A stretch of DNA of 64,000 bases. Origin: Rhodospirillaceae bacterium (lineage in GTDB: Bacteria > Pseudomonadota > Alphaproteobacteria > Dongiales > Dongiaceae). The stretch lies in the NCBI GenBank assembly GCA_016794165.1, contig JAEUKV010000043.1:26-64025 (forward strand). Reading direction: 5' to 3'. Both the position numbers and the translations under genes were made by a program. This document shows, piece after piece, positions 246 to 64,000 of the stretch (within the stretch, counting starts at the first letter, position 1; each line of letters opens with the position of its first letter). A model generated the notes under the pieces. That model searched no databases and was not told the DNA's origin. It worked only from the letters and a program-made list of their open reading frames with translations.

Positions 246-801
246 ACAGGCGCGGCAGGAAAATGGTGAGGGTCGTCGCCACGATGATGGCGGCAAGCAG
301 GCCGACCGTGAAATGGGTCCAACTGGATGGCCGCAGGGCCCCCAGCGAGACAATCAGAAAGACGATCGGCAGGTCCAGAAAATGGGTGAAAGTCGGCACC
401 TTTTCCTGGCGCGCCGCGTCTATTTCTGGCGTAAATCGCCCGAGTTTCTCGGCTTCGCGGGTGAGGCGGCCCAACTTCATGAAATAGACCCGCGTGATGG
501 TGTTGCCCTCGACGAATTCGAACAGGAACAGCGCGATCATGCCTACCAGCCAGGGCTGCTCGAGAAAGCCCCAGCCGTCATGGAAGTAGACGATGAGCAC
601 CGTGCCCGAGGCCAGCAGCAGGATGGCGCCCGGCGCGACCAGGCCGTCATAGAAGATGCCAATGGCGCGCACCGCCTCGGCGAAGACCGGCAGGGTGCGC
701 GCCTGGCGGGTGCGCACATCGAAGATGAAAACGCCGATCAGGCCGGCCGAGATCAGCATCAGGCCGACGAAATGGCCGAAGCGGCTGAGTTCATAGAGCA
801 T
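205..801 (-). CDS. DUF2269-like integral membrane protein
   Basis: 198 aa, 4-5 hydrophobic segments, N-terminal H in first helix, QPWL motif; convergent overlap with the LysR end. Confidence 0.6.
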   Translation of the reverse strand: MLYELSRFGHFVGLMLISAGLIGVFIFDVRTRQARTLPVFAEAVRAIGIFYDGLVAPGAILLLASGTVLIVYFHDGWGFLEQPWLVGMIALFLFEFVEGNTITRVYFMKLGRLTREAEKLGRFTPEIDAARQEKVPTFTHFLDLPIVFLIVSLGALRPSSWTHFTVGLLAAIIVATTLTIFLPRLFRSRSGGLLPGSS

Positions 802-831
802 GGCGGTCTCCGCTCGAACGGTGGTGCGGCG

Positions 832-1914
832 TCACGACGATACTGCCGCGATCAGCTTCGCGGCCATGGCGGGCGCGCTTTCCGGCCTGAGACGCGGCCA
901 GTCTTCGCCGAGGAGCACCTTCAGCGCCGCCGCGCATTTTTCGGTGAAGATGACGGTACCGTCCTTTTCGATGGCGCTGATGCCATCGAAACTGAGCGCG
1001 GAGGCATTGACGCCGAGCGCCTGTTCGAGGTGCCAGTCGGACGGCAGGTCGATGGCAACACCCTTGCGGCTGATCTTCACCGGATAGCCGCCAACCAGGC
1101 CGTTGGGTGCGGGCGCATGCAAGGCCTGCGGCTCGTCACCGAGTAGTGCCGCCAGCACGCCAAGCCCGGCGGAAGCGGTGATGCGGTTGATCTCCAGATC
1201 ATGCGCGACCGGCATCTTGATGCTGCGCAGCTTGTCCTTGATGGCGAGCGAGATGTCGTGGCCATGCCACAGCACCTGGAGCAGGAAGGGCGGCAATTCC
1301 TTCACCGCCTCCTCGCGATAGAACAGAGTCGAGAGCGCATGGCTGCCCACCAGCTTGATGGCGAGTTCCGAGATTGGCGCGTTGCTGTGCTGGCTGGCGA
1401 GGAAGCGGATCTTGGGCAGGCACTCGCTGACATTGCCGATGCCGACGATCGGGCCCGAGCCCGTCATGTGCAGGATGGGATTGACCACGTCAGGATAGGT
1501 GGCGGAGACCCAGGGGCAGTGCAGGTCGGATTTCTCCCAGGCCGCGCGCAGCGTGAGCATGGGCGCCAGATGACAGGCGAGCCAGCCGCCGAAGGGCAGC
1601 GCACGGATCCTGGGATTGGCGTGGCCGGTCAGCTTCCACCAGGGCAACAGGGTGGGTGCCGCCAGCATCAGGTCCGGCTGGATCCTGCGCAGGGCCTCGG
1701 CCGCGTCGGGCGCGTTGAAATCGAAGGCGACCACGTCGATGCGGGGATACTCATCCTCCAGCGCCGCACCGACCCTGGCGGCATTCGCGCGCAATTTCGC
1801 GGCGGCCACATTGCGGGTCGCCACGATGATATGCGGGAACCGCCCGTCGCGCGCCGCCGCTTCCAGCACCGCGCCGTTCAGTTTTCCCAAGGATATCAGC
1901 AGCAGCTTGCTCAC
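832..1914 (-). CDS. Hypothetical Rossmann-fold protein (saccharopine dehydrogenase/LDH-like oxidoreductase)
   Basis: 360 aa from GTG; beta-alpha-beta start LLLISLGKLNG...IIVATRN, YPDVVNP and GIGN motifs. Confidence 0.55.
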   Translation of the reverse strand: MSKLLLISLGKLNGAVLEAAARDGRFPHIIVATRNVAAAKLRANAARVGAALEDEYPRIDVVAFDFNAPDAAEALRRIQPDLMLAAPTLLPWWKLTGHANPRIRALPFGGWLACHLAPMLTLRAAWEKSDLHCPWVSATYPDVVNPILHMTGSGPIVGIGNVSECLPKIRFLASQHSNAPISELAIKLVGSHALSTLFYREEAVKELPPFLLQVLWHGHDISLAIKDKLRSIKMPVAHDLEINRITASAGLGVLAALLGDEPQALHAPAPNGLVGGYPVKISRKGVAIDLPSDWHLEQALGVNASALSFDGISAIEKDGTVIFTEKCAAALKVLLGEDWPRLRPESAPAMAAKLIAAVSS

Positions 1915-53555: not shown

Positions 53556-53744
53556 ATGAGTCGCGAAAAGAACGAACAGAGGGCGCTCGACATCGTCGCC
53601 GGACGGGCTGACGCGGCGACCGCGACAGCGCCCAAAAAAGCCGGCCTTGGCGGCCTGGAAAAGGCAGGCATCGCCCTTTGGCTCCTGGTCCTGCTGGGTG
53701 GCGCGCTCGCGGCGGTTTATTTCCTGGTGCTGGCACCCAAATAG
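53556..53744 (+). CDS. Small single-pass membrane protein (62 aa)
   Basis: Polar N-terminus then GIALWLLVLLGGALAAVYFLVL; fills the intergenic gap. Confidence 0.7.
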   Translation: MSREKNEQRALDIVAGRADAATATAPKKAGLGGLEKAGIALWLLVLLGGALAAVYFLVLAPK

Positions 53745-53806
53745 GCACCGCCAGCTTCCGCACATCCTGCCCGTCGGCTAAGGTGTCGCTCTCCACGGGG
53801 CGGGGC

Positions 53807-54433
53807 ATGCGCGAGATCTACGATATTTCCCAGACACTCCGCATCGGTCTACCGGTCTGGCCGGGCGACACGGCGTTCGACCTGCGGCGAGTCTGGACCA
53901 TGGGTCCCGGCGTACCGGTCAATGTCTCGGCGCTTACCTTCTCGACCCATAGCGGCAGCCACGCCGATGCGCCGCTTCACTACGACGCTGCGGGTTGCGC
54001 CATCGACGGCGTCGATCCGACTGTCTATCTGGGACCGGCACAGCTTGTCGATGCCGGAGATGCAGGCGACCTCGTCACCGCGGCGATGATTCTTCCTCAC
54101 CTTCAGCTGGGCGTCGAGCGACTCCTGATCCGCACCTATCCGGTGGCGCCACAAGCGCAGTGGGACAGCGGGTTCGCGGCAGTCGACCCGGCACTCATCG
54201 ATGCCATTGCCGCGCGCGGGGTACGGCTGATCGGGGTCGACACCCCGTCGCTCGACCCACAGGATTCCAAGACCATGGCGGCACATCTCGCCGTGGCACG
54301 GCACGGCCTCGCCATCCTGGAAGGGCTGGTGCTCGACAAGGTGCCGGTCGGCATCTATGAACTCATTGCCCTGCCCCTCAAGATTGCCGGAGCCGATTCC
54401 AGTCCGGTTCGCGCGCTGTTGCGGAGTCTCTGA
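53807..54433 (+). CDS. kynB: Kynurenine formamidase (arylformamidase)
   Basis: DISQ, WPGDT, HSGSHADAPLH, GVDTPSLDP, ILEGL, SSPVRA. Confidence 0.92.
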   Translation: MREIYDISQTLRIGLPVWPGDTAFDLRRVWTMGPGVPVNVSALTFSTHSGSHADAPLHYDAAGCAIDGVDPTVYLGPAQLVDAGDAGDLVTAAMILPHLQLGVERLLIRTYPVAPQAQWDSGFAAVDPALIDAIAARGVRLIGVDTPSLDPQDSKTMAAHLAVARHGLAILEGLVLDKVPVGIYELIALPLKIAGADSSPVRALLRSL

Positions 54434-54434
54434 C

Positions 54435-55676
54435 ATGTCACACCTCGATCGCGCCGCCTGCGCCGCCCAGGACGACGGAGATCACCTCGCCTTCGCGCGG
54501 GACCGGTTCGATCTGCCGGCCGGTATCATCTATCTCGATGGCAACTCCCTTGGCGCCCTGCCAAAGAGGACGCCGACGCGGATCGAAACGGTGATCCGCC
54601 GGCAATGGGGCACCGACCTCATTACCGGCTGGAACAAGCACGGCTGGGTCGACCTGCCGCGCCGTCTCGGCGCGCGCATCGCCGATCTGATCGGGGCACA
54701 TGCCGACGAGGTGGTGGTGTGCGATTCCACTTCGATAAACGTCTTCAAGCTGTTGAGTGCCGCCCTTCGCCTGCGCCCGGATCGCAAGGTGGTCCTCTCC
54801 GATACCGGCAATTTCCCGACCGACCTTTACATGGCACAGGGGTTGGCGGATCTGCTCGGACGGGGGCATCGCCTGGAACTGGTATCGCCGGCGGATATCA
54901 CCGCGCGCATTGCCGAGGATGTCGCCGTGGTCCTGTTGACCGAAATCGACTACCGCACCGGCCGGCGCCACGACATGGCGGCGATCAACGCCCGGGCCCG
55001 GGCCGCGGGCGCCCTGACCCTCTGGGATCTCGCCCATTCCGCCGGCGCCATGCCGGTCGATCTTGACGGCACGGGCACCGATTTCGCCATCGGCTGTGGC
55101 TATAAATACCTCAATGGCGGGCCGGGCGCCCCGGCCTTTCTCTATGTCGCGCGGCGCTGGCTCGGCGAAACGCAGCAACCGCTATTCGGCTGGTTCGGCC
55201 ATGCGGCGCCTTTCGATTTTGAAACCGCCTATCAGCCGAGATCCGGGATCGATCGGTTCCTGGTGGGAACCCCGCCGGTCCTCAGCATGGCGGCCCTCGA
55301 ATGCGGACTGGAGACCTTCGCCGGCGTCGACCTCAGCCAGCTGCGCGCCAAGTCGCTCGCCCTCGGCGATTTGATGATCCGGCTGGTGGCGCAGGAATGT
55401 CCTGGGCTGGGTCTCACCCTCGCCAGCCCGATCGACGCCGGCCGGCGTGGCAGCCAGGTGAGCTACGCTCATGCCAGCGGCTATGCCGTGATGCAGGCGC
55501 TGATTGCCCGGGGCGTCATCGGCGACTTCCGGGCGCCCGACCTTCTGCGCTTCGGCTTCACCCCGCTTTATACGCGCTACCAGGACATTTGGGATGCCGT
55601 CGCCGCCCTGAAAACCGTGCTGGAACAGGGCGAATGGCAGAGGCCCGAATTCAGCCATCGCGCCGCGGTGACCTAA
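54435..55676 (+). CDS. kynU: Kynureninase
   Basis: YLDGNSLG, CDSTSIN, NFPTDLY, WDLAHSAG, GCGYKYLNGGPG, RFGFTPLY. Confidence 0.95.
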   Translation: MSHLDRAACAAQDDGDHLAFARDRFDLPAGIIYLDGNSLGALPKRTPTRIETVIRRQWGTDLITGWNKHGWVDLPRRLGARIADLIGAHADEVVVCDSTSINVFKLLSAALRLRPDRKVVLSDTGNFPTDLYMAQGLADLLGRGHRLELVSPADITARIAEDVAVVLLTEIDYRTGRRHDMAAINARARAAGALTLWDLAHSAGAMPVDLDGTGTDFAIGCGYKYLNGGPGAPAFLYVARRWLGETQQPLFGWFGHAAPFDFETAYQPRSGIDRFLVGTPPVLSMAALECGLETFAGVDLSQLRAKSLALGDLMIRLVAQECPGLGLTLASPIDAGRRGSQVSYAHASGYAVMQALIARGVIGDFRAPDLLRFGFTPLYTRYQDIWDAVAALKTVLEQGEWQRPEFSHRAAVT

Positions 55677-55781: not shown

Positions 55782-56024
55782 ATGCGGCCGATCTTCGTGA
55801 TGGTGAAATGCGACCCCGGCAAGGCCTATGAAGTGGCGGAAAAGGCCCTCGATACCGTGCAGCAGATCGCCGAACTCTATTCGATTTCCGGCCAGTACGA
55901 CCTGCTGGTGAAATGCTACCTGCCGAGCGAGATGGATGTGGGCCGCTTCGTCACGTCGGAGTTGCAGACCCTGCCTTTCGTCAAGGATACGCTGACCGTC
56001 ATCACCTTCAACGCCTTCACCTGA
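55782..56024 (+). CDS. Lrp/AsnC ligand-binding-domain-only protein
   Basis: 80 aa, ELYSISGQYDLLVK, no HTH. Confidence 0.85.
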   Translation: MRPIFVMVKCDPGKAYEVAEKALDTVQQIAELYSISGQYDLLVKCYLPSEMDVGRFVTSELQTLPFVKDTLTVITFNAFT

Positions 56025-56071
56025 AGAGCCGCCGTCAACGGCGCATAACAAGAACTGGGAGACATGACATC

Positions 56072-57286
56072 ATGAGTACGCGTTCGTTCCTGCTGAAATC
56101 CGCCAGCGCCGGCCTGATGGCCGCCCTGCTGGCAACGCCGGCCCTGGCCACCGACACCAAGGTCGGCATTCTTTTCGACGTGACCGGCCCCATTGCCAGC
56201 TTCATTCCACCGATGATGGACGCGGTCAAGCTTGCCAATGACGAGGTAAATGCCGGCGGCGGCCTGCTCGACGGCCAGATGGTGACGGTAGTCGGGGACA
56301 CAACCGGTGCCACGCAAGGCGCGGTCGACGCCGCCACCAAGCTGGTCAACATCGAGAACGTGCCGGTCGTGGTCGGCGCCCTGATGTCCGGGACCACGCT
56401 GGCAGCAGCCAATGCCGTCACCATTCCGGCCGGCGTCACGCAGATCTCGCCCACCGCGACTTCGCCCGACTTTACCGGCCTCAACGACAACGACTATGTG
56501 TTTCGCATCGTACCGTCGGACGCCTATCAGGGTGTGGTGCTGGCAAAGCTGGTGCTCGACCAGGGCATCACGACCGTGGCGCTCACCTATGCCAACAACG
56601 ACTATGCGACGCCGCTGGCGACCGGCTTCGCCGCGGCCTACAAGGCCGGCGGCGGCACCATCGCCGCCGAAGTGAAGCATGAGGAAAAGCAGCAGAGCTA
56701 CATGGCCGAACTTGGCACCCTCGCCAAGGACAAACCGGAAGCCCTGGTGCTGATCGCCTATGCTGGCGATTCCGGCACCACCATCGTCAAGGAGGCGCTG
56801 GAGAACGATTTGTTCACCCGCTTCATCGGCACCGACGGACTGCGCGACAACAAGCTCATCGAGCAGATCGGCGCCGAGCACTTGAAAGACTCCTTCTTCA
56901 CCTCGCCATCGGCCCCCGAGAGCGAAGCCGCCACCAAGTTCGAGGCGCTCTATACGGCCGCCTTCGAGACCACAAAGGACAAGATCTTCATCGGCCAGAC
57001 TTATGATTCAGTCATGCTGGCAGCTCTCGCGGTCGAAAAAGCCGGTTCCACCGACCGCGCCAAGGTACGCGACGCGCTGCGCGAGGTCGCGAGCGCGCCC
57101 GGCGAGAAGATCCTGCCCGGCGAATGGGCCAAGGCCAAGGCCCTGATCGCGGAAGGCAAGGACATCGACTATTCCGGCGCCACCGGCGAGATGGAATTTG
57201 ACGCCAACGGCGATATCCCCGGCGTCATCGGCCATTTCGTGGTCGAGGGCGACGGCTACAAGCAGGTCGGTCTGGTCAATCCGTAA
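56072..57286 (+). CDS. ABC transporter substrate-binding protein (Liv/PBP1 type)
   Basis: Signal peptide, TGP, GALMSGTT, QISPTATSP, FRIVPSDAYQG, YSGATG...FDANGD. Confidence 0.92.
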   Translation: MSTRSFLLKSASAGLMAALLATPALATDTKVGILFDVTGPIASFIPPMMDAVKLANDEVNAGGGLLDGQMVTVVGDTTGATQGAVDAATKLVNIENVPVVVGALMSGTTLAAANAVTIPAGVTQISPTATSPDFTGLNDNDYVFRIVPSDAYQGVVLAKLVLDQGITTVALTYANNDYATPLATGFAAAYKAGGGTIAAEVKHEEKQQSYMAELGTLAKDKPEALVLIAYAGDSGTTIVKEALENDLFTRFIGTDGLRDNKLIEQIGAEHLKDSFFTSPSAPESEAATKFEALYTAAFETTKDKIFIGQTYDSVMLAALAVEKAGSTDRAKVRDALREVASAPGEKILPGEWAKAKALIAEGKDIDYSGATGEMEFDANGDIPGVIGHFVVEGDGYKQVGLVNP

Positions 57287-57306
57287 CCGACGCTTGCCCT
57301 GATTGT

Positions 57307-57348
57307 GCGGCCCGCCTTCCGCGACGATGGCGGGCCGCCGATCTTTTT
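57307..57348 (+). terminator. Hairpin with T-tract after the SBP gene
   Basis: GCGGCCCGCC-N12-GGCGGGCCGC then CGATCTTTTT. Confidence 0.55.
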
Positions 57349-57358
57349 GGAGATGCCG

Positions 57359-58027
57359 ATGCCCATCGCAGCGATCCTGTTCGATGCCTACGGCACCCTG
57401 CTCGACATCCACGCCGCCATGGCGACCCATCAGGCGCGGATCGGCCCGCGCGCCGCGGAGATATCCGCGCTGTGGCGGCAGAAGCAGCTGGAATACACCT
57501 GGACACTGACCCTGGCGCAGGACTACCGCCCCTTCGACACCGTCACCGCGGAAGCGCTCGATTTCGCCCTCGCCCAGCACGGGATCGATGATGCTGCGTT
57601 GCGCGCTGACCTGCTCGCCACCTATCGGGTTCTGCCGCCCTTTCCCGAGGTGGTCGGCGCGCTCGCGACCCTCAGGCGAAAGGGGCTCCGCCTCGGCGTC
57701 CTTTCCAATGGGACGGGCACAATGCTGGACGCCGCGTTCGCTGCAGCCGGCCTCGAGGAAATGCTGGACCCGATCCTCTCGGTGGACACCCTGCGGATTT
57801 ACAAGCCGGATCCACGCGTCTACGCCATGGCAACCAACGCATTGGCGCTGGCACCGTCCGAAATCGGATTCGTCTCCAGCAATGCCTGGGACGCCATGGG
57901 GGCCGCGCGCTTCGGCTTCCACGTCTTTTCGCTGCGACGTCGGCCAGATCCTGTCGAATACGACCTGAATTCGCGCGCAACACTGATCGCGCATCTCGGC
58001 GAGATCGCGGCTACCCTCGGCCAGTGA
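57359..58027 (+). CDS. Haloacid dehalogenase type II family hydrolase
   Basis: FDAYGTL, WRQKQLEYTW, LSNG, YKPDPRVY, VSSNAWD. Confidence 0.9.
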   Translation: MPIAAILFDAYGTLLDIHAAMATHQARIGPRAAEISALWRQKQLEYTWTLTLAQDYRPFDTVTAEALDFALAQHGIDDAALRADLLATYRVLPPFPEVVGALATLRRKGLRLGVLSNGTGTMLDAAFAAAGLEEMLDPILSVDTLRIYKPDPRVYAMATNALALAPSEIGFVSSNAWDAMGAARFGFHVFSLRRRPDPVEYDLNSRATLIAHLGEIAATLGQ

Positions 58028-58036
58028 GGCCTGCCC

Positions 58037-58981
58037 TCAATCGATCCTTCGGGGCGGTCGCTCCGGCAGGATGCCCCTGGCGAAGCGTTGCAGCACGACG
58101 ATCAGCAAAACGCCGATGAGGAGCGCGCGCAGATAGGACGAACGCGTGATCCACTCGGCCGGCAGGCGATTGGTGAAGAGCTCCGTCCCCGACCAGATCA
58201 GCCAGACGACCAGTGCACCCAGCAGCGCCCCCCGATTGTTGCCGCTGCCACCGATGATCAGCATCACCCAAACCAGGAAGGTCGTGAGCAGCGGCTCGGT
58301 TGCGCTGGCGCCGATGAACTTGAAATACATGGCCGAGAGTGCGCCGCCAAGACCCATCACCATCGACCCGATGACGAAGGCCTCGAGCCGAAACCGTACC
58401 ACGTCCTTGCCGATCGCAGCGGCGGCCAACTCGTTGTCGCGAATGGCCCGCATGGCACGGCCCCAAGGCGACGCCCAGGCACGCTCGGCGGCAAGATAAA
58501 GTACGACGAGAATCAGCACGACCAGCAACAGGAAGGCAGCATTTCCCCAGGGCTGACCGAGGCTTTCGAACGGTCGCGGCACGGTCGAGATGCCCATGGT
58601 ACCGTTGGCGAGCCAGGTCTCGTTCTTGAACACGAGCCGGATGATCTCGGCGATGCCGATGCTCGCCATGGCGAGGTAGTCACCCTTGAGGCCGAGGCAG
58701 ATGCGCCCGATCGGCCAGGCGATCAGGCCCGAGAGCAGCATCGCCACCGGCAAGGCTGCCAAGGGCGGCCAGCCGAAGCCGCCCAGATGGTTGGCACTTT
58801 CCGGCGCTGTCAGGATCGCTGTCGTGTAGGCGCCCACGGCGAAGAACCCGGCGATGCCAGCGTTGAACAAGCCAGCAAAACCCCACTGCAGGTTGAGAGC
58901 CAATGTCAGCACGCCATAAATGCCGATCATGGTCAGTAGCGTAAGGCCATACATCAGCAGGCCGAACATGGGGATATCCAT
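58037..58981 (-). CDS. Liv-type ABC permease (LivM-like)
   Basis: LNLQWGFAGLFN.G, L.GDYLA, RAIRDNELAA, GGSGNN.G; TGATG coupling to upstream gene. Confidence 0.92.
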   Translation of the reverse strand: MDIPMFGLLMYGLTLLTMIGIYGVLTLALNLQWGFAGLFNAGIAGFFAVGAYTTAILTAPESANHLGGFGWPPLAALPVAMLLSGLIAWPIGRICLGLKGDYLAMASIGIAEIIRLVFKNETWLANGTMGISTVPRPFESLGQPWGNAAFLLLVVLILVVLYLAAERAWASPWGRAMRAIRDNELAAAAIGKDVVRFRLEAFVIGSMVMGLGGALSAMYFKFIGASATEPLLTTFLVWVMLIIGGSGNNRGALLGALVVWLIWSGTELFTNRLPAEWITRSSYLRALLIGVLLIVVLQRFARGILPERPPRRID

Positions 58982-59871
58982 CACAGTACCCGCCCCTTGA
59001 ACAGTCCCGTCGGTCGCCACACCAGCATTGCCACCATGACGAAGAAGGCGACCGCATTCTTGTAGGCCGGCGGCACCAGTGGCAATTCGCTCAGCCAGGG
59101 ATAGGTGGCGACCTCCTGGGCGATGCCGATGGCAAGCCCACCGACAATGGCACCATAGGGCCGCCCGATCCCGCCCAGGATTGCCGCGGCAAAAAGTGGC
59201 AGCAACAGATCCCAGCCGATGCTGGGGTGCAGCTTGGTATTGATGCCGGCGAACACGCCCGCCGCCGCCGCGAGCCCTCCCCCGATCAGCCAGGTCCAGC
59301 GCACGACCTTCTCTGTATCGATGCCCGAGATGCGGGCGAGATCGGCATCGTCACTCATCGCCCGCATCGCCTTGCCCATGCGGCTGCGGCTGAGAAACCA
59401 GTGCAGCGCCGCGGCAATGACCACGGAGGCGGCGATGATGATGATGTGTTTCTGCGCCAGGCGGATATCGCCAAAGAGCGGAATCGGTCGTCGGATGCCG
59501 GTTTCGTAGCTGAGGATATCGACACCCCAGAAAAGCTGGATCGCCGAACGCACCACCAGCATGACGCCAAACGAGGCGATGACGACAATAATCCCCGGCG
59601 ACCGTCGGAAGGGCCGATAGACAACGTGATCAATGCCCATACTGGCCAAAGCGCCACCCAGGATCGCAAAGGGCAACGCCGCATAAACCGACCAGCCAAG
59701 CGCGATCACAACACTATAGGCAAGATAGGCACCCAGCGTCATCACGTCGCCATGGGCGAAATGAGCAAAACGCAGGATCGCGAAGATCAGCGAGATGCCG
59801 ACCGCGCCCAGCGCATAGATGCAGCCCACCGCGACGCCCGGCAGCAGATAGAGGTTGATGAACTCGGCCAT
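58981..59871 (-). CDS. Liv-type ABC permease (LivH-like)
   Basis: YALGAVG.SL, FAHFAHGD, GKAMRAMSDD..LA..SGI, AILGGIG. Confidence 0.92.
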   Translation of the reverse strand: MAEFINLYLLPGVAVGCIYALGAVGISLIFAILRFAHFAHGDVMTLGAYLAYSVVIALGWSVYAALPFAILGGALASMGIDHVVYRPFRRSPGIIVVIASFGVMLVVRSAIQLFWGVDILSYETGIRRPIPLFGDIRLAQKHIIIIAASVVIAAALHWFLSRSRMGKAMRAMSDDADLARISGIDTEKVVRWTWLIGGGLAAAAGVFAGINTKLHPSIGWDLLLPLFAAAILGGIGRPYGAIVGGLAIGIAQEVATYPWLSELPLVPPAYKNAVAFFVMVAMLVWRPTGLFKGRVL

Positions 59872-59882
59872 GCGATCGTTCC

Positions 59883-60587
59883 TCACCCGCCCAGAAAGGA
59901 CTGGCCGATTTCGGGATTGTCGAGCAGGGCAGCTGCCGTATCCGTCAGGCGATTGCGACCGGTCGCCAGCACATAGCCGCGATGCGCGATGCTGAGTGCC
60001 TGCCGGGCGTTCTGCTCCACCAGCAGGATGCCGATTCCGGCCTGGTTGACCGCGACGATCCGCTCGAAAATCTGCTCCATCACCAGTGGCGAGAGCCCGG
60101 CCGTGGGTTCATCCAGCATCAACAGCTTTGGTTCCGCCATCAGGGCGCGGCCCACCGCTACCATCTGGCGCTGCCCACCGGAAAGTTCGCCTGCCGGCTG
60201 GCGCGCCTTTTCCTTGAGGACGGGAAACAGCGTGAACACCTGTTCCAGCATGCGCGCCAGCGTCATCGGTTTCAGGAAGGCTCCCATCTCCAGGTTTTCC
60301 AGCACGGTGAGATTGCGAAAGACGTTGCGCTCCTGGGGCACGTAGCCCATGCCAAGGCCGACCAGCGCATTGGGCAGCCGGCCGGTCACATCCTGACCGT
60401 CGAACCGGACCGATCCGGCGCGCAACTGCACCAGGCCGAAGATCGCCTTCATCGCTGTGGACTTGCCGGCCCCATTGGCGCCAATGATGACGACGATCTC
60501 GTTGGCTTCCACGGCGAGATCAACCCCATTCAGGATATCCATCCCACCATAGCCACCAACCATTCCGCTCGCCTCAAGCAGCGCCAC
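59883..60587 (-). CDS. Liv-type ABC ATPase (LivF-like)
   Basis: GANGAGKST, LSGGQRQM, LDEPTAGL, LVEQN; start approximate. Confidence 0.93.
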   Translation of the reverse strand: MALLEASGMVGGYGGMDILNGVDLAVEANEIVVIIGANGAGKSTAMKAIFGLVQLRAGSVRFDGQDVTGRLPNALVGLGMGYVPQERNVFRNLTVLENLEMGAFLKPMTLARMLEQVFTLFPVLKEKARQPAGELSGGQRQMVAVGRALMAEPKLLMLDEPTAGLSPLVMEQIFERIVAVNQAGIGILLVEQNARQALSIAHRGYVLATGRNRLTDTAAALLDNPEIGQSFLGG

Positions 60588-61380
60588 GACGCACCCCATC
60601 ATGACCCGACTTGCCACCGCCCAGATAGGCCTCGATCACCGCTTGGTCGCCGCGCACGTCGGCCATCGATCCCTGCATCAGGACCCGCCCCTCCGCCATC
60701 ACGATCACCGGATGGCACAGGCGCGCGATCAGGTCCATGTCGTGTTCGATGACGAAGAAGGTATAGCCGTGATCTCGGTTCAGCCGCTCGATTTCACCGG
60801 CGATTTCGGCCAGCAGGGTGCGATTCACGCCGGCGCCGATCTCGTCGAGCAGCACCACCTTGGGCTGCCACATCATGGTGCGCGCGAGCTCGACCAGCTT
60901 TTTCTGGCCGCCGGAAAGATTCCCGGCAAGTTCATGTTTGACGTGATCGATACGCAGCTGCGCCAGGACCTCCTCGGCACGCAGCCGGATACCCTTCTCT
61001 TCCCGCCGTACCGCCGGCCAGCGCAGCCAGGCATTGACCAGGCGCTCGCCGGATTGGCGCGCAGGCACCGCCATCAGGTTCTCCAGCACGGTCATGCGGC
61101 CGAATTCGTGGGCGATCTGGAAGGTGCGGGCGAGCCCCTTCCGGAACAGCCTGTGTGCCGGCCAACCGGTCACATCCTCGCCATCGAGCCAAACCGTTCC
61201 CTGGTCGGGCGCCAACAGACCGGCGATGATGTTGAACAGGGTCGACTTGCCCGCCCCGTTCGGTCCGATCAGGCCCGTGACCGAGCCCTTGGCCACCGCC
61301 AATGAGCAGCCGTCGACGGCCCGGATGCCGCCGAATCGTTTGACGAGATTTTCGACCTTGATCATCTGGCCCGCGATCAC
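60574..61380 (-). CDS. Liv-type ABC ATPase (LivG-like)
   Basis: FGGIRAVD, GPNGAGKST, RTFQ, LSGGQKK, LLDE, IEHDM. Confidence 0.93.
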   Translation of the reverse strand: MIAGQMIKVENLVKRFGGIRAVDGCSLAVAKGSVTGLIGPNGAGKSTLFNIIAGLLAPDQGTVWLDGEDVTGWPAHRLFRKGLARTFQIAHEFGRMTVLENLMAVPARQSGERLVNAWLRWPAVRREEKGIRLRAEEVLAQLRIDHVKHELAGNLSGGQKKLVELARTMMWQPKVVLLDEIGAGVNRTLLAEIAGEIERLNRDHGYTFFVIEHDMDLIARLCHPVIVMAEGRVLMQGSMADVRGDQAVIEAYLGGGKSGHDGVRRGAA

Positions 61381-62885
61381 TTGGGCCGCGCAGCGGAATG
61401 CTCCGGCAGATAGTTTGCAAACTCGTGCTCCACCGCCTTGGCATCGAGTGCCAGTCCGCAGGCAACGCCGGAAGCCATGCCGCCGGGATAGATTTCCTCC
61501 GCCCGGCCGCGCAGGCCCTGGATGATCGCCTCGGCAACCGCCGTCGGGCGCATCTTCATGCCTTCGAAGCCCGGCGTCATCGGTGTGTCCACGGCACCCG
61601 GCAGCACTCCCATGACATGCGTGCCCTGCTGCTTCAACTCGGCCCGCAATCCCTGCGTCAGGGACAGCAGGGCCGCCTTGGACGCGGCATAGGTCGACAT
61701 CAGCGGCAGGTTGACATGGGCCACGATGGTGATGAGGTTCACCATCGCCCCGCCGCCATTCCTTGCCAGCAGCGGCTGGAAGGCGCGGGCCATGGCGAAC
61801 GTGCCGAGATAGTTGACCTCCATCTCGTGCCGCGCGTTTTCCAGACTGCCGGGGGCGAACAGGCCCTCATTGGAATTCCATCCGGCATTGTTGACCAGCA
61901 GAGTGACGTCGGCGCAGGCCCTGGCCGCCTTGTCGATGCTGGCAGGATCCGCGACATCGAGCTGAACCGGCACCAAACGATCGGGCGCCACGGCCACCAG
62001 GGTGCGCAGGGAATCCGGATTGCGCGCCGCGCAGTACACCTTCGCCACCCCGGCGCGCAGCAGCGCGCGCACGGTTTCGCTGCCGATGCCGCCATTGGCG
62101 CCCGTCACCAGGGCGACCGCATCCTTGACGAGATCCGGACCCGAACCAAGCGCCGCCCGGGCGACGGCGCCCTTGGCCCCGTCCTGGATCAGGCCCTGGT
62201 CATAGGCCAGCACCACCCACTGGAAGCCCTGTGCCCGCCGGTCGGCGGCCATGCTGGCATAGGGCGTGAAGATGCCGCAGGTCTTCCCGGCCGCCTTCGC
62301 AGCCGCCAGCACAGACTGAACCGCAGCCTCGTGCTTCGGCCCGAAATCCGGAAAGGTGCCCAGCGACATGGAAAGATCGAATGGGCCGATGAACAGCATG
62401 TCGATACCGGGAACGGCCGCGATCTCGGCGGCGTTGGCGACCGCTTCTGCCGTCTCGATCATGACGGCGACCAGGATGTCGTCGTTGGCGCCGCCGATAT
62501 AAGCCTTGTAGTCGAGCATCGGCCGCGTTCCGCCGCCCGAGCGGCCGCCCAGAGGCGGATACTTGGCCTTGCGCACCACTGCCCTGGCCTGTGCCGCCGT
62601 ATCCACCATCGGCACGATGAGCGCACGGGCGCCGGCATCGAGGACCGAGCCGATGGCATAGTCGCTGTCATCGGCACTCCTGACGGCAGGCACCGCGCGA
62701 TGGCGGACCAGGCCCACGGCATGCTCCAGGCTGCCGCGGTCCCAGAGCCCGTGCTGCATGTCGAAAACGACGCTGTCGGGGCCGGATTCCGCCAGCAGTT
62801 CCGCAGCGGAGGGCAAGCCCAGGGTCGCCCAATGGCAGGTGACGCAGCCACCAGACGCCAGTTTCTCCTTGAGTGGGTTGCTCAT
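61377..62885 (-). CDS. Fusion of HpcH/HpaI class II aldolase domain and SDR oxidoreductase domain
   Basis: aa 1-245: DMQHG, AVR, VPMV, MIET, FIGPFDL; aa 253-502: VTGANGGIG, LVNNAG, YAASK, PGAVDT; one continuous frame. Confidence 0.9.
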   Translation of the reverse strand: MSNPLKEKLASGGCVTCHWATLGLPSAAELLAESGPDSVVFDMQHGLWDRGSLEHAVGLVRHRAVPAVRSADDSDYAIGSVLDAGARALIVPMVDTAAQARAVVRKAKYPPLGGRSGGGTRPMLDYKAYIGGANDDILVAVMIETAEAVANAAEIAAVPGIDMLFIGPFDLSMSLGTFPDFGPKHEAAVQSVLAAAKAAGKTCGIFTPYASMAADRRAQGFQWVVLAYDQGLIQDGAKGAVARAALGSGPDLVKDAVALVTGANGGIGSETVRALLRAGVAKVYCAARNPDSLRTLVAVAPDRLVPVQLDVADPASIDKAARACADVTLLVNNAGWNSNEGLFAPGSLENARHEMEVNYLGTFAMARAFQPLLARNGGGAMVNLITIVAHVNLPLMSTYAASKAALLSLTQGLRAELKQQGTHVMGVLPGAVDTPMTPGFEGMKMRPTAVAEAIIQGLRGRAEEIYPGGMASGVACGLALDAKAVEHEFANYLPEHSAARPK

Positions 62886-62886
62886 G

Positions 62887-63999
62887 CTATTGGCCGGCGC
62901 TTTCCGCCCAGCGCTTCATCAGCGTGTTGGAGGGCAACTTCTCGTCCAGGAGCTTCTTCGCAGTCTCGATTCCGGCGGTGGGCAGGTTCTTCGGATCCAA
63001 CAGGCCGATCTGCACCAGCACCGAGGCCTGGTCCCAGTAGATATGTTCGTTGTAGAGCTTGTCGCCGCGGAAACAGACGATGGCAACCAGCGGGATCTCG
63101 ACATATTTGCCCGTGGGTGCCACGCCCGGCAGCATCCAGTCGATTTCCCTGTCATGGGTAAAGCAGAACAGCATCTCGTCGACGACACGATCGGCACCTA
63201 TCGTGCGCGAGATGGGAATGAGCTTGGTGTCGGCCGGGTTCGCATTCACGAAATGGTGCTGATAGAAGCGCGAGAGGTCCTTGGCGCCCACGCCTCCGGT
63301 CATGGTCGGAATGTGGTTGACATAGGGTTCGGCCACCATCGTCGCCATGGTGGCGGCGACATCGCGCGTCGCGAACTCGTGGTAACAATGCGCATCCCAC
63401 AACGCGGAGAGATCGTAGCGCGGGCCAAGTGCCTTGCGGAACACGGCGATCGATCGCGAATGGGCCATGATCGAGGCCGGCTTGTCGAAATGCTCGCCCA
63501 TGGTGCGCGCAAAGGCGTGGTCGACTCCCGGATAGGTATAGAGTTCGATCTCCGGCCGGTCCTTCAGCGCGGCATAGATCTGGTCGCGCGCATCCTTGCC
63601 GCAATACTGGTCGAGTTCGGCAAAATGCAGCACGGTCGGGCATTTGATGTTACGAGCCTCGTCGAGCGCGCCTTCGATGCCGACACCGTAATAGCCGACC
63701 GCAGCATCGACATCGACGCGGGCCGCGGTGAGATAAGCGAGTTTTCCGCCCAGGCAATGACCGAGGACGCCGACCTTGCCGTTGCAGGCCGCATGCCGGC
63801 GCAACGCCGCCACTGTGGCGCCGATATCCTCGATGCCCGTATCGACGTCGAATTTCTGGAAAAAGCCGAACGCCTTCTGCCATTCCTCCGGCGAATAGCC
63901 CATGTCGACATTGGGCTCCATGCGCCAGAAGAGATCCGGTGCCAACACCACATAGCCTTCCTCAGCGTAGTAGTCCGCCGTTTCCCGCACATAGGCATT
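62887..63999 (-). CDS. Dienelactone hydrolase fused to SnoaL/NTF2-like domain (5'-truncated)
   Basis: GYVVLAPDLFWR, GHCLGG nucleophile elbow, YPGVDHAF; C-domain PYVNHIPT.TGG, VDEM, EHIYWDQASVL. Confidence 0.9.
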   Translation of the reverse strand, partial: NAYVRETADYYAEEGYVVLAPDLFWRMEPNVDMGYSPEEWQKAFGFFQKFDVDTGIEDIGATVAALRRHAACNGKVGVLGHCLGGKLAYLTAARVDVDAAVGYYGVGIEGALDEARNIKCPTVLHFAELDQYCGKDARDQIYAALKDRPEIELYTYPGVDHAFARTMGEHFDKPASIMAHSRSIAVFRKALGPRYDLSALWDAHCYHEFATRDVAATMATMVAEPYVNHIPTMTGGVGAKDLSRFYQHHFVNANPADTKLIPISRTIGADRVVDEMLFCFTHDREIDWMLPGVAPTGKYVEIPLVAIVCFRGDKLYNEHIYWDQASVLVQIGLLDPKNLPTAGIETAKKLLDEKLPSNTLMKRWAESAGQ

Positions 64000-64000
64000 G

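What the first reader, a model, noticed from the sequence alone, without database searches (positions are those of the whole stretch)
58037..63999. Tightly coupled operon of two double-domain enzymes plus ABC uptake: candidate undescribed catabolic pathway
Seen: DLH-SnoaL stop to aldolase-SDR ATG is 1 nt; the fusion stop overlaps the LivG-like GTG (GTGA); the ATPases and permeases overlap or nearly abut. Four catalytic domains (lactone hydrolase, NTF2-like cyclase/hydrolase, aldolase, SDR) sit in two proteins, with a type II haloacid dehalogenase facing them. Established: DLH opens lactones, and HpcH aldolases finish aromatic or sugar-acid routes at pyruvate. Inference: uptake, lactone opening, redox step and aldol cleavage of an unknown lactone, aromatic-derived or halogenated acid. 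The operon start is outside the window.
Basis: partly seen in the sequence, partly recalled or inferred. Interest (0 to 1): 0.6.

Follow-up and report, generated by a model that had tools for sequence, protein, structure and literature searches.

The report
IifA-like oxindole-to-anthranilate operon with aldolase-SDR fusion
The operon is real and conserved, but its "lactone hydrolase" is a relative of IifA, the enzyme that turns an oxidised indole into anthranilate, so the locus most likely breaks down oxidised tryptophan or indole derivatives by a variant route nobody has described.

Summary
Six minus-strand genes are tightly coupled: a DLH+SnoaL protein, an HpcH aldolase+SDR fusion, and LivG/F/H/M. 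A haloacid dehalogenase gene converges on them.

The interpretation changes. The DLH-SnoaL protein is a full-length homologue of IifA (the Dongia mobilis orthologue is 59% identical to Acinetobacter baumannii IifA). The literature describes IifA as a two-domain, putatively cofactor-independent oxygenase that converts 3-hydroxyindolin-2-one to anthranilate.

- **Clade.** It belongs to a sister clade that never sits beside an indole oxygenase. This clade pairs with a PRK08264-type SDR, which here is fused to the aldolase.
- **Co-occurrence.** In 61 Dongiaceae genomes, all 25 with the full IifA-like gene also have the fusion. Five of five genomes from outside that sample carry both genes unlinked or about 10 kb apart.
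- **Missing first enzymes.** Tested Dongia genomes gave no hit for IifC, tryptophan dioxygenase or IDO (the IDO control was silent).
- **Converging operon.** It encodes kynB, kynU, a stand-alone RAM protein, the transporter's amino-acid-type binding protein, and the dehalogenase.

Best reading: an anthranilate-forming locus for imported, already oxidised tryptophan or indole derivatives. The proposed steps (aldolase releases isatin and pyruvate, SDR makes dioxindole, IifA-like makes anthranilate) are inference. I class it as a new variant of a known kind.

Earlier scan note e1-5239644 flagged the same aldolase-SDR fusion on this stretch.

The parts
62887..63999 (-). IifA/DhoA-like two-domain protein (DLH fold plus SnoaL fold). 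It is truncated at the 5' end by the contig end; about 40 codons are missing.
   Evidence: Pfam DLH 3e-36 and SnoaL 21 bits. A. baumannii tblastn hits are 59-60% identical over the whole 370-aa fragment. The D. mobilis orthologue, 92% identical to the window fragment, is 59% identical and 74% similar to A. baumannii IifA over 412/416 aa. Published iifA primers match that A. baumannii ORF exactly. The ClcD-type residues Cys123, His202, Asp171, Glu36 and Arg206 are kept; Arg81 is Trp.
62890..63444 (-). C-terminal SnoaL/NTF2-fold domain of the IifA-like protein, its most conserved part.
   Evidence: It is 71-95% identical across loci in which the DLH domain is only 51-59% identical in the distant ones. 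AlphaFold2 model pLDDT 95. Foldseek finds a generic SnoaL/NTF2 fold at 12-21% identity to solved structures. About 8000 database proteins score E<1e-20.
61377..62885 (-). HpcH/HpaI class II pyruvate aldolase (residues 1-245) fused to a PRK08264-type SDR (residues 253-502).
   Evidence: Pfam and NCBIfam NF006118, 304 bits against a cut-off of 279. D42, Q44, H45, R69, E144 and D170 are invariant in 117 homologues. The SDR carries TGxxxGIG, NNAG, N358, T386, Y399 and K403 in the window. The fusion is conserved down to 54% identity.
60574..61380 (-). LivG-like ABC ATPase.
   Evidence: ABC_tran plus BCA_ABC_TP_C; best NCBIfam match LivG, 215 bits. Its start overlaps the aldolase-SDR stop.
59883..60617 (-). 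LivF-like ABC ATPase.
   Evidence: ABC_tran; NCBIfam UrtE/LivF, 205-215 bits.
58981..59886 (-). LivH-like permease.
   Evidence: BPD_transp_2, 5e-44.
58037..59020 (-). LivM-like permease, the last gene of the operon.
   Evidence: BPD_transp_2, 3e-41.
57305..58027 (+). L-2-haloacid dehalogenase-type HAD (type II), convergent with the operon.
   Evidence: TIGR01428, 204 bits against a cut-off of 125. PDB 2no4 at 3e-54. All nine L-DEX YL catalytic residues align: D10, T14, R41, S118, K151, Y157, S175, N177, D180. It recurs next to the aldolase-SDR gene in several genera.
56072..57286 (+). Periplasmic binding protein (Peripla_BP_6) for the LIV-type importer. The long ORF from 55913 has a spurious start.
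   Evidence: Pfam 4e-47. A signal peptide MSTRSFLLK...ALA-TD is present. Alignment to LivK 1usg keeps S79, T102, Y150 and Y202, with W18 as F and E226 as D. It lies in the operon after LivM in L022, L025 and L051.
55782..56024 (+). Stand-alone RAM (AsnC/Lrp ligand-binding domain) protein, 80 aa.
   Evidence: PDB 2cvi and 2e1a at 5e-8. Copies 73-96% identical lie next to the HAD, SBP or aldolase-SDR genes in 23 loci.
54357..55676 (+). Kynureninase KynU.
   Evidence: TIGR01814 equivalog, 313 bits against a cut-off of 246.
53678..54433 (+). Arylformamidase KynB. The true start is probably near 53816.
   Evidence: TIGR03035 equivalog, 248 bits against a cut-off of 223, matching from residue 47.

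Best explanation
The locus forms anthranilate from imported, already oxidised tryptophan or indole derivatives, either as catabolism or as salvage.

What is shown:
- Gene 1 is a clade-II member of the IifA/DhoA family. The studied members of this family convert 3-hydroxyindolin-2-one (dioxindole) to anthranilate.
- Gene 2 fuses a class II (HpcH/HpaI) pyruvate aldolase to an SDR of the type that accompanies clade-II IifA genes in other bacteria.
- Both genes are translationally coupled to a LIV/HAAT-type ABC importer.
- The importer's amino-acid-type binding protein is encoded in a converging unit together with kynB and kynU (formylkynurenine to kynurenine to anthranilate plus alanine), a small RAM sensor-like protein and a haloacid-dehalogenase-type hydrolase.
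- No indole oxygenase (IifC) or tryptophan 2,3-dioxygenase was found in the Dongia genomes tested. An IDO search was also blank, but its control was silent.

What is inferred (most likely mechanism):
1. An amino-acid-like oxindole such as dioxindolylalanine is imported.
2. It is deaminated to its 2-oxo acid by an enzyme not assigned here.
3. The aldolase domain cleaves this 4-hydroxy-2-oxo acid into pyruvate and isatin.
4. The fused SDR reduces isatin to 3-hydroxyindolin-2-one.
5. The IifA-like enzyme converts that to anthranilate.
For: IifA identity:
- tblastn finds A. baumannii at 59-60% over 100% of the query.
- That ORF heads an operon of 416/261/416/176/315 aa ORFs that matches the published iifABCDE. 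The published iifA primers hit inside it exactly (PMC4577076).
- The D. mobilis orthologue is 59% identical over its full length.
- IifA function and its two-domain DLH plus SnoaL make-up come from PMC7225977, PMC6221969, PMC10934121 and PMC12538310.

Trees:
- Clade I, split off with 100/98 support, holds the iifABCDE clusters and the pCAR1 Rieske cluster.
- Clade II holds the window, every aldolase-SDR genome, and the SDR-only pairs.
- Clade II also holds Burkholderia PAMC 26561 (beside an iac-like IAA cluster), Paraburkholderia pBN1 (M20-MFS-PLP-cupin-SDR-IifA) and Skermanella (aminotransferase-IifA).

Coupling of the two fusions:
- In 61 family genomes, all 25 with the IifA-like gene also have the fusion.
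- Five of five genomes from outside that sample have both genes unlinked or about 10 kb apart.
- Stand-alone SDRs 44-56% identical to the window's SDR domain sit next to clade-II IifA genes in two classes.

Other support:
- The aldolase catalytic residues are invariant.
- The binding protein keeps its alpha-amino-acid binding residues.
- kynB and kynU score at equivalog level.
- No TDO, IDO or IifC was detected.
- An SDR-type carbonyl reductase is known to convert isatin to 3-hydroxyindolin-2-one (PMC10934121).
Against: - No enzyme of clade II has been assayed, so its substrate could differ from that of clade I.
- The window's SDR domain is only 28% identical to IifB.
- The SDR catalytic Tyr is Leu or Phe in 94 of 117 family members, which is hard to reconcile with a classical reductase. 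The window's own copy has Tyr.
- HpaI-type aldolases normally release aldehydes, not an activated ketone such as isatin.
- No deaminating enzyme is assigned.
- The kynB/kynU adjacency is limited to some Dongiaceae lineages.
- In other lineages the LIV importer is replaced by other ABC importers.
- The haloacid dehalogenase and the RAM protein have no role in the scheme.
- The control for the IDO search was silent.
Confidence: 0.55

Rival explanations
1. Two unrelated units share one transcript. The IifA-like and aldolase-SDR genes form a small detoxification module for isatin or oxindoles made by neighbouring organisms. The LIV-type importer with its binding protein carries ordinary amino acids or kynurenine for the kyn genes only.
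For: - In four genomes the IifA-like gene pairs with just a stand-alone SDR, among housekeeping genes such as LptD and LptFG. These genomes have no aldolase of this subfamily.
- The transporter type varies between lineages: LIV, SBP_bac_11, SBP_bac_8 or Dpp-type.
- The binding protein's nearest solved relatives are Leu/Ile/Val binders.
Against: - The stop/start overlap between the aldolase-SDR and LivG genes, and close spacing, persist across genera.
- In L022, L025 and L051 the binding protein follows LivM in the same operon as the aldolase-SDR gene, with no kyn genes nearby.
- In Inquilinaceae the binding-protein orthologue stays within 2-4 kb of the IifA-like gene even though the aldolase-SDR gene is far away.
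Confidence: 0.2
2. One reading: the DLH domain hydrolyses an unknown lactone, possibly halogenated. The SnoaL domain, SDR and aldolase finish the route at pyruvate, and the haloacid dehalogenase removes halide from a 2-haloacid product such as chloroacetate.
For: - The DLH domain is close to ClcD (1din, E 8.5e-45) and keeps the Cys-His-Asp triad and Glu36.
- The dehalogenase keeps all nine catalytic residues of L-DEX YL.
- It recurs next to the aldolase-SDR gene in three arrangements.
Against: - The whole protein is 59% identical to IifA, whose reported reaction is oxygenation of a lactam to anthranilate, not lactone hydrolysis.
- Arg81 of ClcD is replaced by Trp.
- No cycloisomerase or maleylacetate reductase was identified among the neighbouring genes annotated.
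- All other contexts of the family concern indole or tryptophan metabolism.
Confidence: 0.1
3. A kynurenine side route. Kynurenine is transaminated to 4-(2-aminophenyl)-2,4-dioxobutanoate. The SDR reduces C4, and the aldolase releases pyruvate plus 2-aminobenzaldehyde, which is oxidised to anthranilate. The IifA-like enzyme acts on a cyclised by-product.
For: - kynB and kynU are adjacent, and no TDO was found.
- The order SDR-then-aldolase fits the SDR being the older partner of the IifA-like gene.
- An aromatic aldehyde dehydrogenase lies next to an IifA homologue in L143.
Against: - Kynureninase already gives anthranilate directly.
- The dioxo acid cyclises spontaneously to kynurenate (general knowledge).
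- The kyn genes are missing from most aldolase-SDR loci.
- This route leaves IifA without a clear role.
Confidence: 0.08
4. A non-phosphorylative sugar-acid route: the SDR acts as a sugar dehydrogenase, DLH as a lactonase, and HpcH as a 2-keto-3-deoxy-sugar-acid aldolase.
For: - One source names the fusion 'RhmA / short-chain dehydrogenase'.
- The nearest solved aldolases are YfaU, HpaI and GarL.
Against: - No dehydratase or sugar transporter was seen in any context.
- The importer is of the amino-acid type.
- The first enzyme is an IifA homologue.
Confidence: 0.03

Closest known systems
The iif / ind / dho-ipo indole degradation cluster (iifABCDE of Acinetobacter sp. O153 and A. baumannii; dhoAB-ipoABC of Pseudomonas savastanoi)
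   Same: It has an IifA/DhoA-family two-domain protein (DLH plus SnoaL fold, about 410 aa, 59% identical for the D. mobilis orthologue). An SDR is encoded right beside it, and anthranilate is the expected product.
   Different: - No IifC/IifD flavin monooxygenase was found in the genome.
- The SDR is not an IifB orthologue (28% identity) and is fused to an HpcH aldolase.
- The IifA-like protein falls in a separate, well-supported sister clade.
- The operon continues into an amino-acid-type ABC importer and faces kynB/kynU.
RhaEW, the bifunctional L-rhamnulose-1-phosphate aldolase / L-lactaldehyde dehydrogenase (PMC3870299)
   Same: An aldolase is fused to a dehydrogenase domain that acts on the carbonyl product of the cleavage. 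Both activities were validated for RhaEW. The domain order, as I recall it (not checked in the paper), is also aldolase at the N-terminus.
   Different: RhaEW's aldolase is, from my own knowledge, of the class II 'Aldolase_II' family acting on a sugar phosphate. Here the aldolase is an HpcH/HpaI pyruvate aldolase. The resemblance is in logic only; the window's protein is not a member.
ClcD dienelactone hydrolase (carboxymethylenebutenolidase, PDB 1din)
   Same: The N-terminal domain aligns over its full length at E 8.5e-45 and keeps Cys123, His202, Asp171, Glu36 and Arg206.
   Different: - It carries an extra, very conserved SnoaL domain.
- Arg81 is Trp.
- It has no chlorocatechol-pathway neighbours.
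- The studied family member IifA is reported as an oxygenase acting on a lactam.
The bacterial kynurenine pathway (kynA-kynB-kynU)
   Same: kynB and kynU score at equivalog level and lie adjacent.
   Different: No kynA (TDO) was found in six Dongia genomes. The genes are joined to a binding protein, a RAM protein and a dehalogenase, which suggests they work on imported formylkynurenine or kynurenine.
The LIV-I / HAAT branched-chain amino acid ABC importer (LivJ/K-HMGF)
   Same: It has two ATPases, two BPD_transp_2 permeases and a Peripla_BP_6 binding protein with conserved alpha-amino-acid contacts.
   Different: The importer genes are co-transcribed with catabolic enzymes. The binding protein is encoded on the other strand, and its ligand is untested.

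Membership tests
IifA/DhoA (3-hydroxyindolin-2-one to anthranilate enzyme) | Two-domain architecture: N-terminal DLH fold and C-terminal SnoaL fold, about 410-416 aa | tested here: met
   Pfam finds DLH plus SnoaL. Full-length relatives are 409-415 aa. The SnoaL fold was modelled at pLDDT 95. The architecture of IifA is stated in PMC7225977.
IifA/DhoA (3-hydroxyindolin-2-one to anthranilate enzyme) | Full-length sequence similarity to a gene shown to be iifA | tested here: met
   The D. mobilis orthologue is 59% identical and 74% similar over 412/416 aa to the A. baumannii ORF that carries the published iifA primers and heads an iifABCDE-sized operon.
IifA/DhoA (3-hydroxyindolin-2-one to anthranilate enzyme) | Placement in the same clade as IifA genes from iif clusters | tested here: not met
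   The window's protein lies in sister clade II, split off with 100/98 support. All iifBCD-linked copies and the pCAR1 copy lie in clade I.
IifA/DhoA (3-hydroxyindolin-2-one to anthranilate enzyme) | Genomic company of IifB, IifC and IifD | tested here: not met
   No IifC homologue at E<=1e-10 in five Dongia genomes. In the own genome the best IifB match is 33% and the best IifD match 39%.
IifA/DhoA (3-hydroxyindolin-2-one to anthranilate enzyme) | Conversion of 3-hydroxyindolin-2-one to anthranilate | not testable with these tools
   This needs an enzyme assay.
HpcH/HpaI class II pyruvate aldolase | Pfam HpcH_HpaI domain plus catalytic His45, Arg70 and metal ligands Glu149 and Asp175 (HpaI numbering, from my own knowledge) | tested here: met
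   PF03328 at 5e-33. H45, R69, E144 and D170 are invariant in 117 homologues. The Glu before the His in HpaI-type enzymes is Gln44 here.
Classical SDR | TGxxxGxG and NNAG motifs plus the Asn-Ser-Tyr-Lys tetrad | tested here: inconclusive
   The window has TGANGGIG, NNAG, N358, T386 (Thr in place of Ser), Y399 and K403. In the family the Tyr position is Leu in 87, Phe in 7 and Tyr in 23 of 117 members.
ClcD-type dienelactone hydrolase | Cys-His-Asp triad, Glu36, and the two substrate arginines Arg81 and Arg206 | tested here: not met
   The triad, Glu36 and Arg206 align, but Arg81 aligns with Trp. No chlorocatechol-pathway genes were seen nearby.
L-2-haloacid dehalogenase (HAD type II) | TIGR01428 score above its cut-off and the nine catalytic residues of L-DEX YL | tested here: met
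   204 bits against a cut-off of 125. D10, T14, R41, S118, K151, Y157, S175, N177 and D180 all align.
LIV/HAAT ABC importer | LivG- and LivF-type ATPases, two BPD_transp_2 permeases, and a Peripla_BP_6 binding protein with alpha-amino-acid contacts | tested here: met
   Alignment to LivK keeps S79, T102, Y150 and Y202, with E226 as Asp. The ligand itself is untested.
RhaEW aldolase-dehydrogenase | Aldolase_II (adducin-type) aldolase domain fused to an SDR | tested here: not met
   The aldolase domain here is HpcH_HpaI. Only the fusion logic is shared (PMC3870299).

The most novel reading that the evidence does not exclude
A previously undescribed branch of tryptophan-derivative catabolism. Oxidised tryptophan (dioxindolylalanine or a related 3-substituted dioxindole) is imported by an amino-acid-type ABC system and deaminated. 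Its side chain is then removed by a retro-aldol cleavage that releases isatin and pyruvate. A fused SDR reduces isatin to dioxindole, and a clade-II IifA makes anthranilate. Together with orphan kynB/kynU, this would let Dongia salvage or eat tryptophan oxidation products without any indole or tryptophan oxygenase. A parallel cluster in Hyphomicrobiales holds a related aldolase, a PF04199 cyclase, an IorAB-like oxidoreductase and a flavin monooxygenase. I speculate that this cluster takes the same isatin to 2-aminobenzoyl-CoA.
Probability: 0.22. Interest if true: 0.75.

Novelty: new variant of a known kind. Interest (0 to 1): 0.52.

Why it matters
IifA is the least understood step of bacterial indole degradation. 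It is described as a putatively cofactor-independent oxygenase with an alpha/beta-hydrolase domain and a SnoaL domain.

This work shows that IifA homologues fall into two clades:
- one linked to indole oxygenases;
- one linked to a different SDR, PLP enzymes, amino-acid or peptide importers and, in Dongiaceae and some neighbouring alphaproteobacterial families, an aldolase-SDR fusion.

That points to oxindole or isatin-type substrates entering the anthranilate route from sources other than indole. Candidates are oxidised tryptophan, auxin breakdown products and kynurenines.

The predictions are directly testable in a cultivable organism, Dongia mobilis.

If the aldolase really releases isatin, it would be a new way to remove the tryptophan side chain and a new activity for HpcH aldolases.

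Tried and rejected
Leads that did not help:
- Treating the DLH domain as a ClcD orthologue. I rejected this because of the IifA identity, the Arg81-to-Trp change and the lack of chlorocatechol genes.
- Inferring the SnoaL domain's function from its fold. The first AlphaFold2 run on 18 close sequences was poor (pLDDT 55). A deeper alignment gave pLDDT 95, but Foldseek returned only generic SnoaL/NTF2 hits at 12-21% identity. NCBIfam gave only a weak match to 'ketosteroid isomerase-related', and the ESM Atlas gave only 'ester cyclase'.
- The first literature searches on DLH, SnoaL, aldolase and SDR fusions found nothing relevant. The link came only from finding a StyA/IndA-type monooxygenase next to homologues in other classes.
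- The 919-aa ORF in Geminicoccaceae (L115). No Pfam domain lies in the N-terminal 520 residues, so I treat it as a spurious extension in high-GC DNA.
- The sugar-acid and pantolactone-type ideas. I dropped them for lack of dehydratase or sugar-transport genes, and after the IifA result.

- The primary paper, Sadauskas et al. 2017, is not held.
- The caps on family-library and PDB-sequence searches were reached. The PF04199 cyclase of L083 therefore could not be compared with isatin hydrolase, and several neighbouring genes remain unannotated.

Full report
**Observation**

The window is contig C144 of a 332-contig genome of a Dongia-like bacterium. The contig ends 13 nt (window base 64000 = contig base 64025 of 64038) beyond the window.

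Six minus-strand genes lie at the stated coordinates:
- a DLH plus SnoaL protein (62887..>63999);
- an HpcH/HpaI aldolase plus SDR fusion (61377..62885, 502 aa);
- two LivG/LivF-type ATPases;
- two BPD_transp_2 permeases.

One base separates the first stop from the next ATG. The following junctions are GTGA-type overlaps or short overlaps. A type II haloacid dehalogenase gene converges on the last permease, with 9 nt between the two stops. A simple scan found no internal promoter-like or terminator-like sites above the shuffle expectation.

Two corrections apply:
- Only about 40 codons of the first gene are missing. In relatives the protein starts MAGxYI and is 409-415 aa long. The operon begins with this gene, downstream of a LysR gene whose orthologue in this genome lies on the 2.3-kb contig C182.
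- The transporter's binding protein lies on the opposite strand.

**Conservation and coupling**

The aldolase-SDR fusion is a populated family: 538 proteins at E<=1e-3, full length down to 54% identity, in Dongia, Dongiaceae and Geminicoccaceae. A scan of one genome per species added Inquilinaceae and Stellaceae, and also found split forms.

In 15 family genomes the order DLH-SnoaL, aldolase-SDR, LivGFHM recurs.

The phyletic pattern in 61 family genomes:
- 25 have a full DLH-SnoaL gene, and all 25 also have the fusion;
- 5 have only the fusion, all of them fragmented assemblies 83-91% complete;
- none has DLH-SnoaL alone.

These genomes are related, so the counts are not independent. However, two genomes of the window's own genus lack both genes. 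In addition, five of five genomes in which no DLH-SnoaL gene was found within the locus fetched around the fusion carry a 69-72% identical DLH-SnoaL gene elsewhere, from about 10 kb (Geminicoccaceae) to 1.1 Mb away or on another contig. The two proteins are therefore functionally tied.

The older partner is the SDR. Four genomes have DLH-SnoaL followed by a stand-alone SDR that is 53-56% identical to the window's SDR domain, among housekeeping genes. These genomes have no aldolase of this subfamily.

**What the first protein is**

The DLH domain resembles ClcD (1din, E 8.5e-45). It keeps Cys123, His202, Asp171, Glu36 and Arg206, but has Trp in place of Arg81.

The C-terminal domain is the most conserved part. 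It is 71-95% identical across loci in which the DLH domain is only 51-59% identical in the distant ones. About 8000 database proteins match it at E<1e-20, many at 75-85% identity. These include about 185-aa stand-alone forms in rotifers and a chytrid. Even so, only 16 of 401 sampled Pseudomonadota genomes carry it.

A good model (pLDDT 95) has a generic SnoaL/NTF2 fold with no close solved relative.

The decisive clue came from other classes. There the gene is followed by an SDR and by a StyA/IndA-type indole monooxygenase (PDB 7z4x, E 1e-180). That is the arrangement of the iif indole-degradation operon.

A tblastn search of PLSDB found A. baumannii at 59-60% identity over the whole query. 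In that record the matching ORF heads five ORFs of 416/261/416/176/315 aa. The published iifA primers of Lin et al. 2015 match inside it exactly (PMC4577076, Table 2). The D. mobilis orthologue, 92% identical to the window fragment, is 59% identical and 74% similar to A. baumannii IifA over 412/416 residues.

The literature describes IifA as follows:
- It is a putative cofactor-independent oxygenase of two domains, the C-terminal one with a SnoaL fold.
- It converts 3-hydroxyindolin-2-one to anthranilate.
- IifC/IifD oxidise indole and IifB is the SDR step.

Sources: PMC7225977, PMC6221969, PMC10934121 and PMC12538310. The primary paper, Sadauskas 2017, is not held.

**Two clades**

A maximum-likelihood tree of 49 homologues splits them with 100/98 support.
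- Clade I holds every copy linked to iifBCD. In a second tree it also holds the pCAR1 copy, which sits behind a Rieske dioxygenase and an SDR and near antABC.
- Clade II holds the window, all genomes with the aldolase-SDR fusion, and the SDR-only pairs. It also holds copies from three named organisms:
  - Burkholderia sp. PAMC 26561: SBP-SDR-IifA beside what looks like an iac-type auxin-degradation cluster, my reading of the annotated products.
  - Paraburkholderia aromaticivorans pBN1: M20 peptidase, MFS, class V PLP enzyme, cupin, SDR, IifA.
  - Skermanella rosea: class IV aminotransferase followed by IifA.

The SDRs next to clade-II copies in Burkholderiaceae are 44-48% identical to the window's SDR domain. 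IifB is only 28% identical.

The tested Dongia genomes have no IifC homologue. The own genome has no IifB orthologue.

**The converging unit**

On the plus strand lie:
- kynB (TIGR03035 equivalog);
- kynU (TIGR01814 equivalog);
- an unannotated 80-aa stand-alone RAM protein (PDB 2cvi at 5e-8);
- the binding protein;
- the dehalogenase.

The binding protein has a signal peptide, and its mature N-terminus lies at residue 81 of the long ORF. Aligned to LivK, it keeps Ser79, Thr102, Tyr150 and Tyr202, and has Asp for Glu226. This is the set that holds the alpha-amino-acid moiety (residue roles from my own knowledge of LivJ/K). It follows LivM in the same operon in more distant genomes.

The RAM and dehalogenase pair travels with the aldolase-SDR gene in 23 loci of several arrangements. 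The dehalogenase keeps all nine catalytic residues of L-DEX YL.

No tryptophan 2,3-dioxygenase was found in six Dongia genomes, five of them 99-100% complete. No IDO was found either, but that search's control was silent.

**Mechanism**

Shown:
- the identity of the parts;
- their coupling;
- the clade structure;
- the lack of detectable indole and tryptophan oxygenases;
- the amino-acid character of the binding protein.

Inferred: IifA and KynU both end at anthranilate, so the locus most likely turns imported, already oxidised tryptophan or indole derivatives into anthranilate.

In clade I an oxygenase plus IifB delivers dioxindole. In clade II another SDR must do so. The simplest such reaction is reduction of isatin, which SDR-type carbonyl reductases are known to perform (PMC10934121).

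An HpcH aldolase fused in front of that SDR would then release the ketone. The 4-hydroxy-2-oxo acid that yields isatin plus pyruvate is the 2-oxo acid of dioxindolylalanine. This fits the amino-acid-type importer and the aminotransferases seen beside clade-II genes elsewhere.

RhaEW is a validated precedent for an aldolase fused to a dehydrogenase that acts on the cleavage product (PMC3870299).

Weak points:
- No clade-II enzyme has been assayed.
- The SDR Tyr is Leu or Phe in 94 of 117 family members.
- HpaI-type aldolases normally release aldehydes.
- The deaminating step, the dehalogenase and the RAM protein are unplaced.
- The importer type varies between lineages.
- No expression data could be obtained.

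**Verdict**

The operon is real and conserved, and it is probably one pathway, but the first enzyme belongs to a studied family and the chemistry is oxindole-to-anthranilate rather than lactone opening.

The combination of a clade-II IifA, an aldolase-SDR fusion, an amino-acid importer and orphan kynB/kynU did not turn up in the literature I could search. It is a new variant of a known kind, of moderate interest, with clear bench tests in Dongia mobilis.

Noticed in passing
window 55782-56024 (+): An unannotated 80-aa stand-alone RAM (AsnC/Lrp ligand-binding domain) gene lies between kynU and the binding protein. It is single-copy in this genome. Copies 73-96% identical sit next to the HAD type II gene in 23 related loci.
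   Followed up: partly
window 53678-55676 (+), and Dongia genomes G000, G016, G028, G036, G043, G049: kynB and kynU score at equivalog level, but no tryptophan 2,3-dioxygenase (PF03301) was found in six Dongia genomes. No IDO was found in five, although that control was silent. These look like orphan lower kynurenine genes sitting next to an importer's binding protein.
   Followed up: partly
window 61686-61688 (codon of Tyr399 in the aldolase-SDR gene), and homologues P0001-P0120: The SDR catalytic tyrosine is Tyr only in Dongia proper and in the stand-alone SDR copies of loci L077-L081. It is Leu in 87 and Phe in 7 of 117 family members, and also Leu in the stand-alone copy of L053. The Lys, the Asn and the cofactor motifs are invariant.
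   Followed up: partly
L083:7564-19947 and about 20 similar Hyphomicrobiales loci (L082-L106): A conserved cluster runs GntR, luciferase-like monooxygenase, flavin reductase, an HpcH aldolase (45-52% identical to the window's aldolase domain), V4R protein, FAD-linked oxidase, PF04199 cyclase, IorAB-like 2-oxoacid oxidoreductase and a Dpp-type ABC importer. It may be a related indole or tryptophan-derivative route.
   Followed up: partly
proteins P0321, P0325, P0382: The IifA C-terminal SnoaL domain occurs as stand-alone proteins of about 185-200 aa, 78-79% identical, in bdelloid rotifers (Adineta vaga, A. steineri) and a chytrid (Zopfochytrium). This suggests horizontal spread or very strong constraint.
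   Followed up: no
G000 contig C182, positions 499-1305 (minus strand): The LysR regulator that precedes the operon in Dongia mobilis has its orthologue (78% identical) on this 2.3-kb contig, which probably adjoins the window's contig end. The first 38 or so codons of the IifA-like gene are in no contig.
   Followed up: partly
L153 (pCAR1.3, NC_021506.1 5126-22232): The carbazole plasmid pCAR1 carries a clade-I IifA homologue behind a Rieske dioxygenase, an isochorismatase-family hydrolase and an SDR, a few kb from antABC. This looks like an iif-like module with a different oxygenase.
   Followed up: partly
L155 (Burkholderia sp. PAMC 26561, NZ_CP014310.1 409273-426382): A clade-II IifA gene with a PRK08264-type SDR and an ABC binding protein lies back to back with what looks like an iac-type auxin-degradation cluster: Rieske alpha and beta subunits, an NTF2 protein, an amidase and an SDR.
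   Followed up: no
window 55913-56071 (+): The long ORF of the binding protein begins 159 nt too early. Its first 53 codons overlap the RAM gene, and the real start is the Met in front of the signal peptide at 56072.
   Followed up: yes
PLSDB records NZ_CP104448.1, NZ_CP077849.1, NZ_CP064203.1: These three A. baumannii records of 3.6-4.1 Mb are filed as plasmids but are evidently chromosomes and carry almost no annotation.
   Followed up: no
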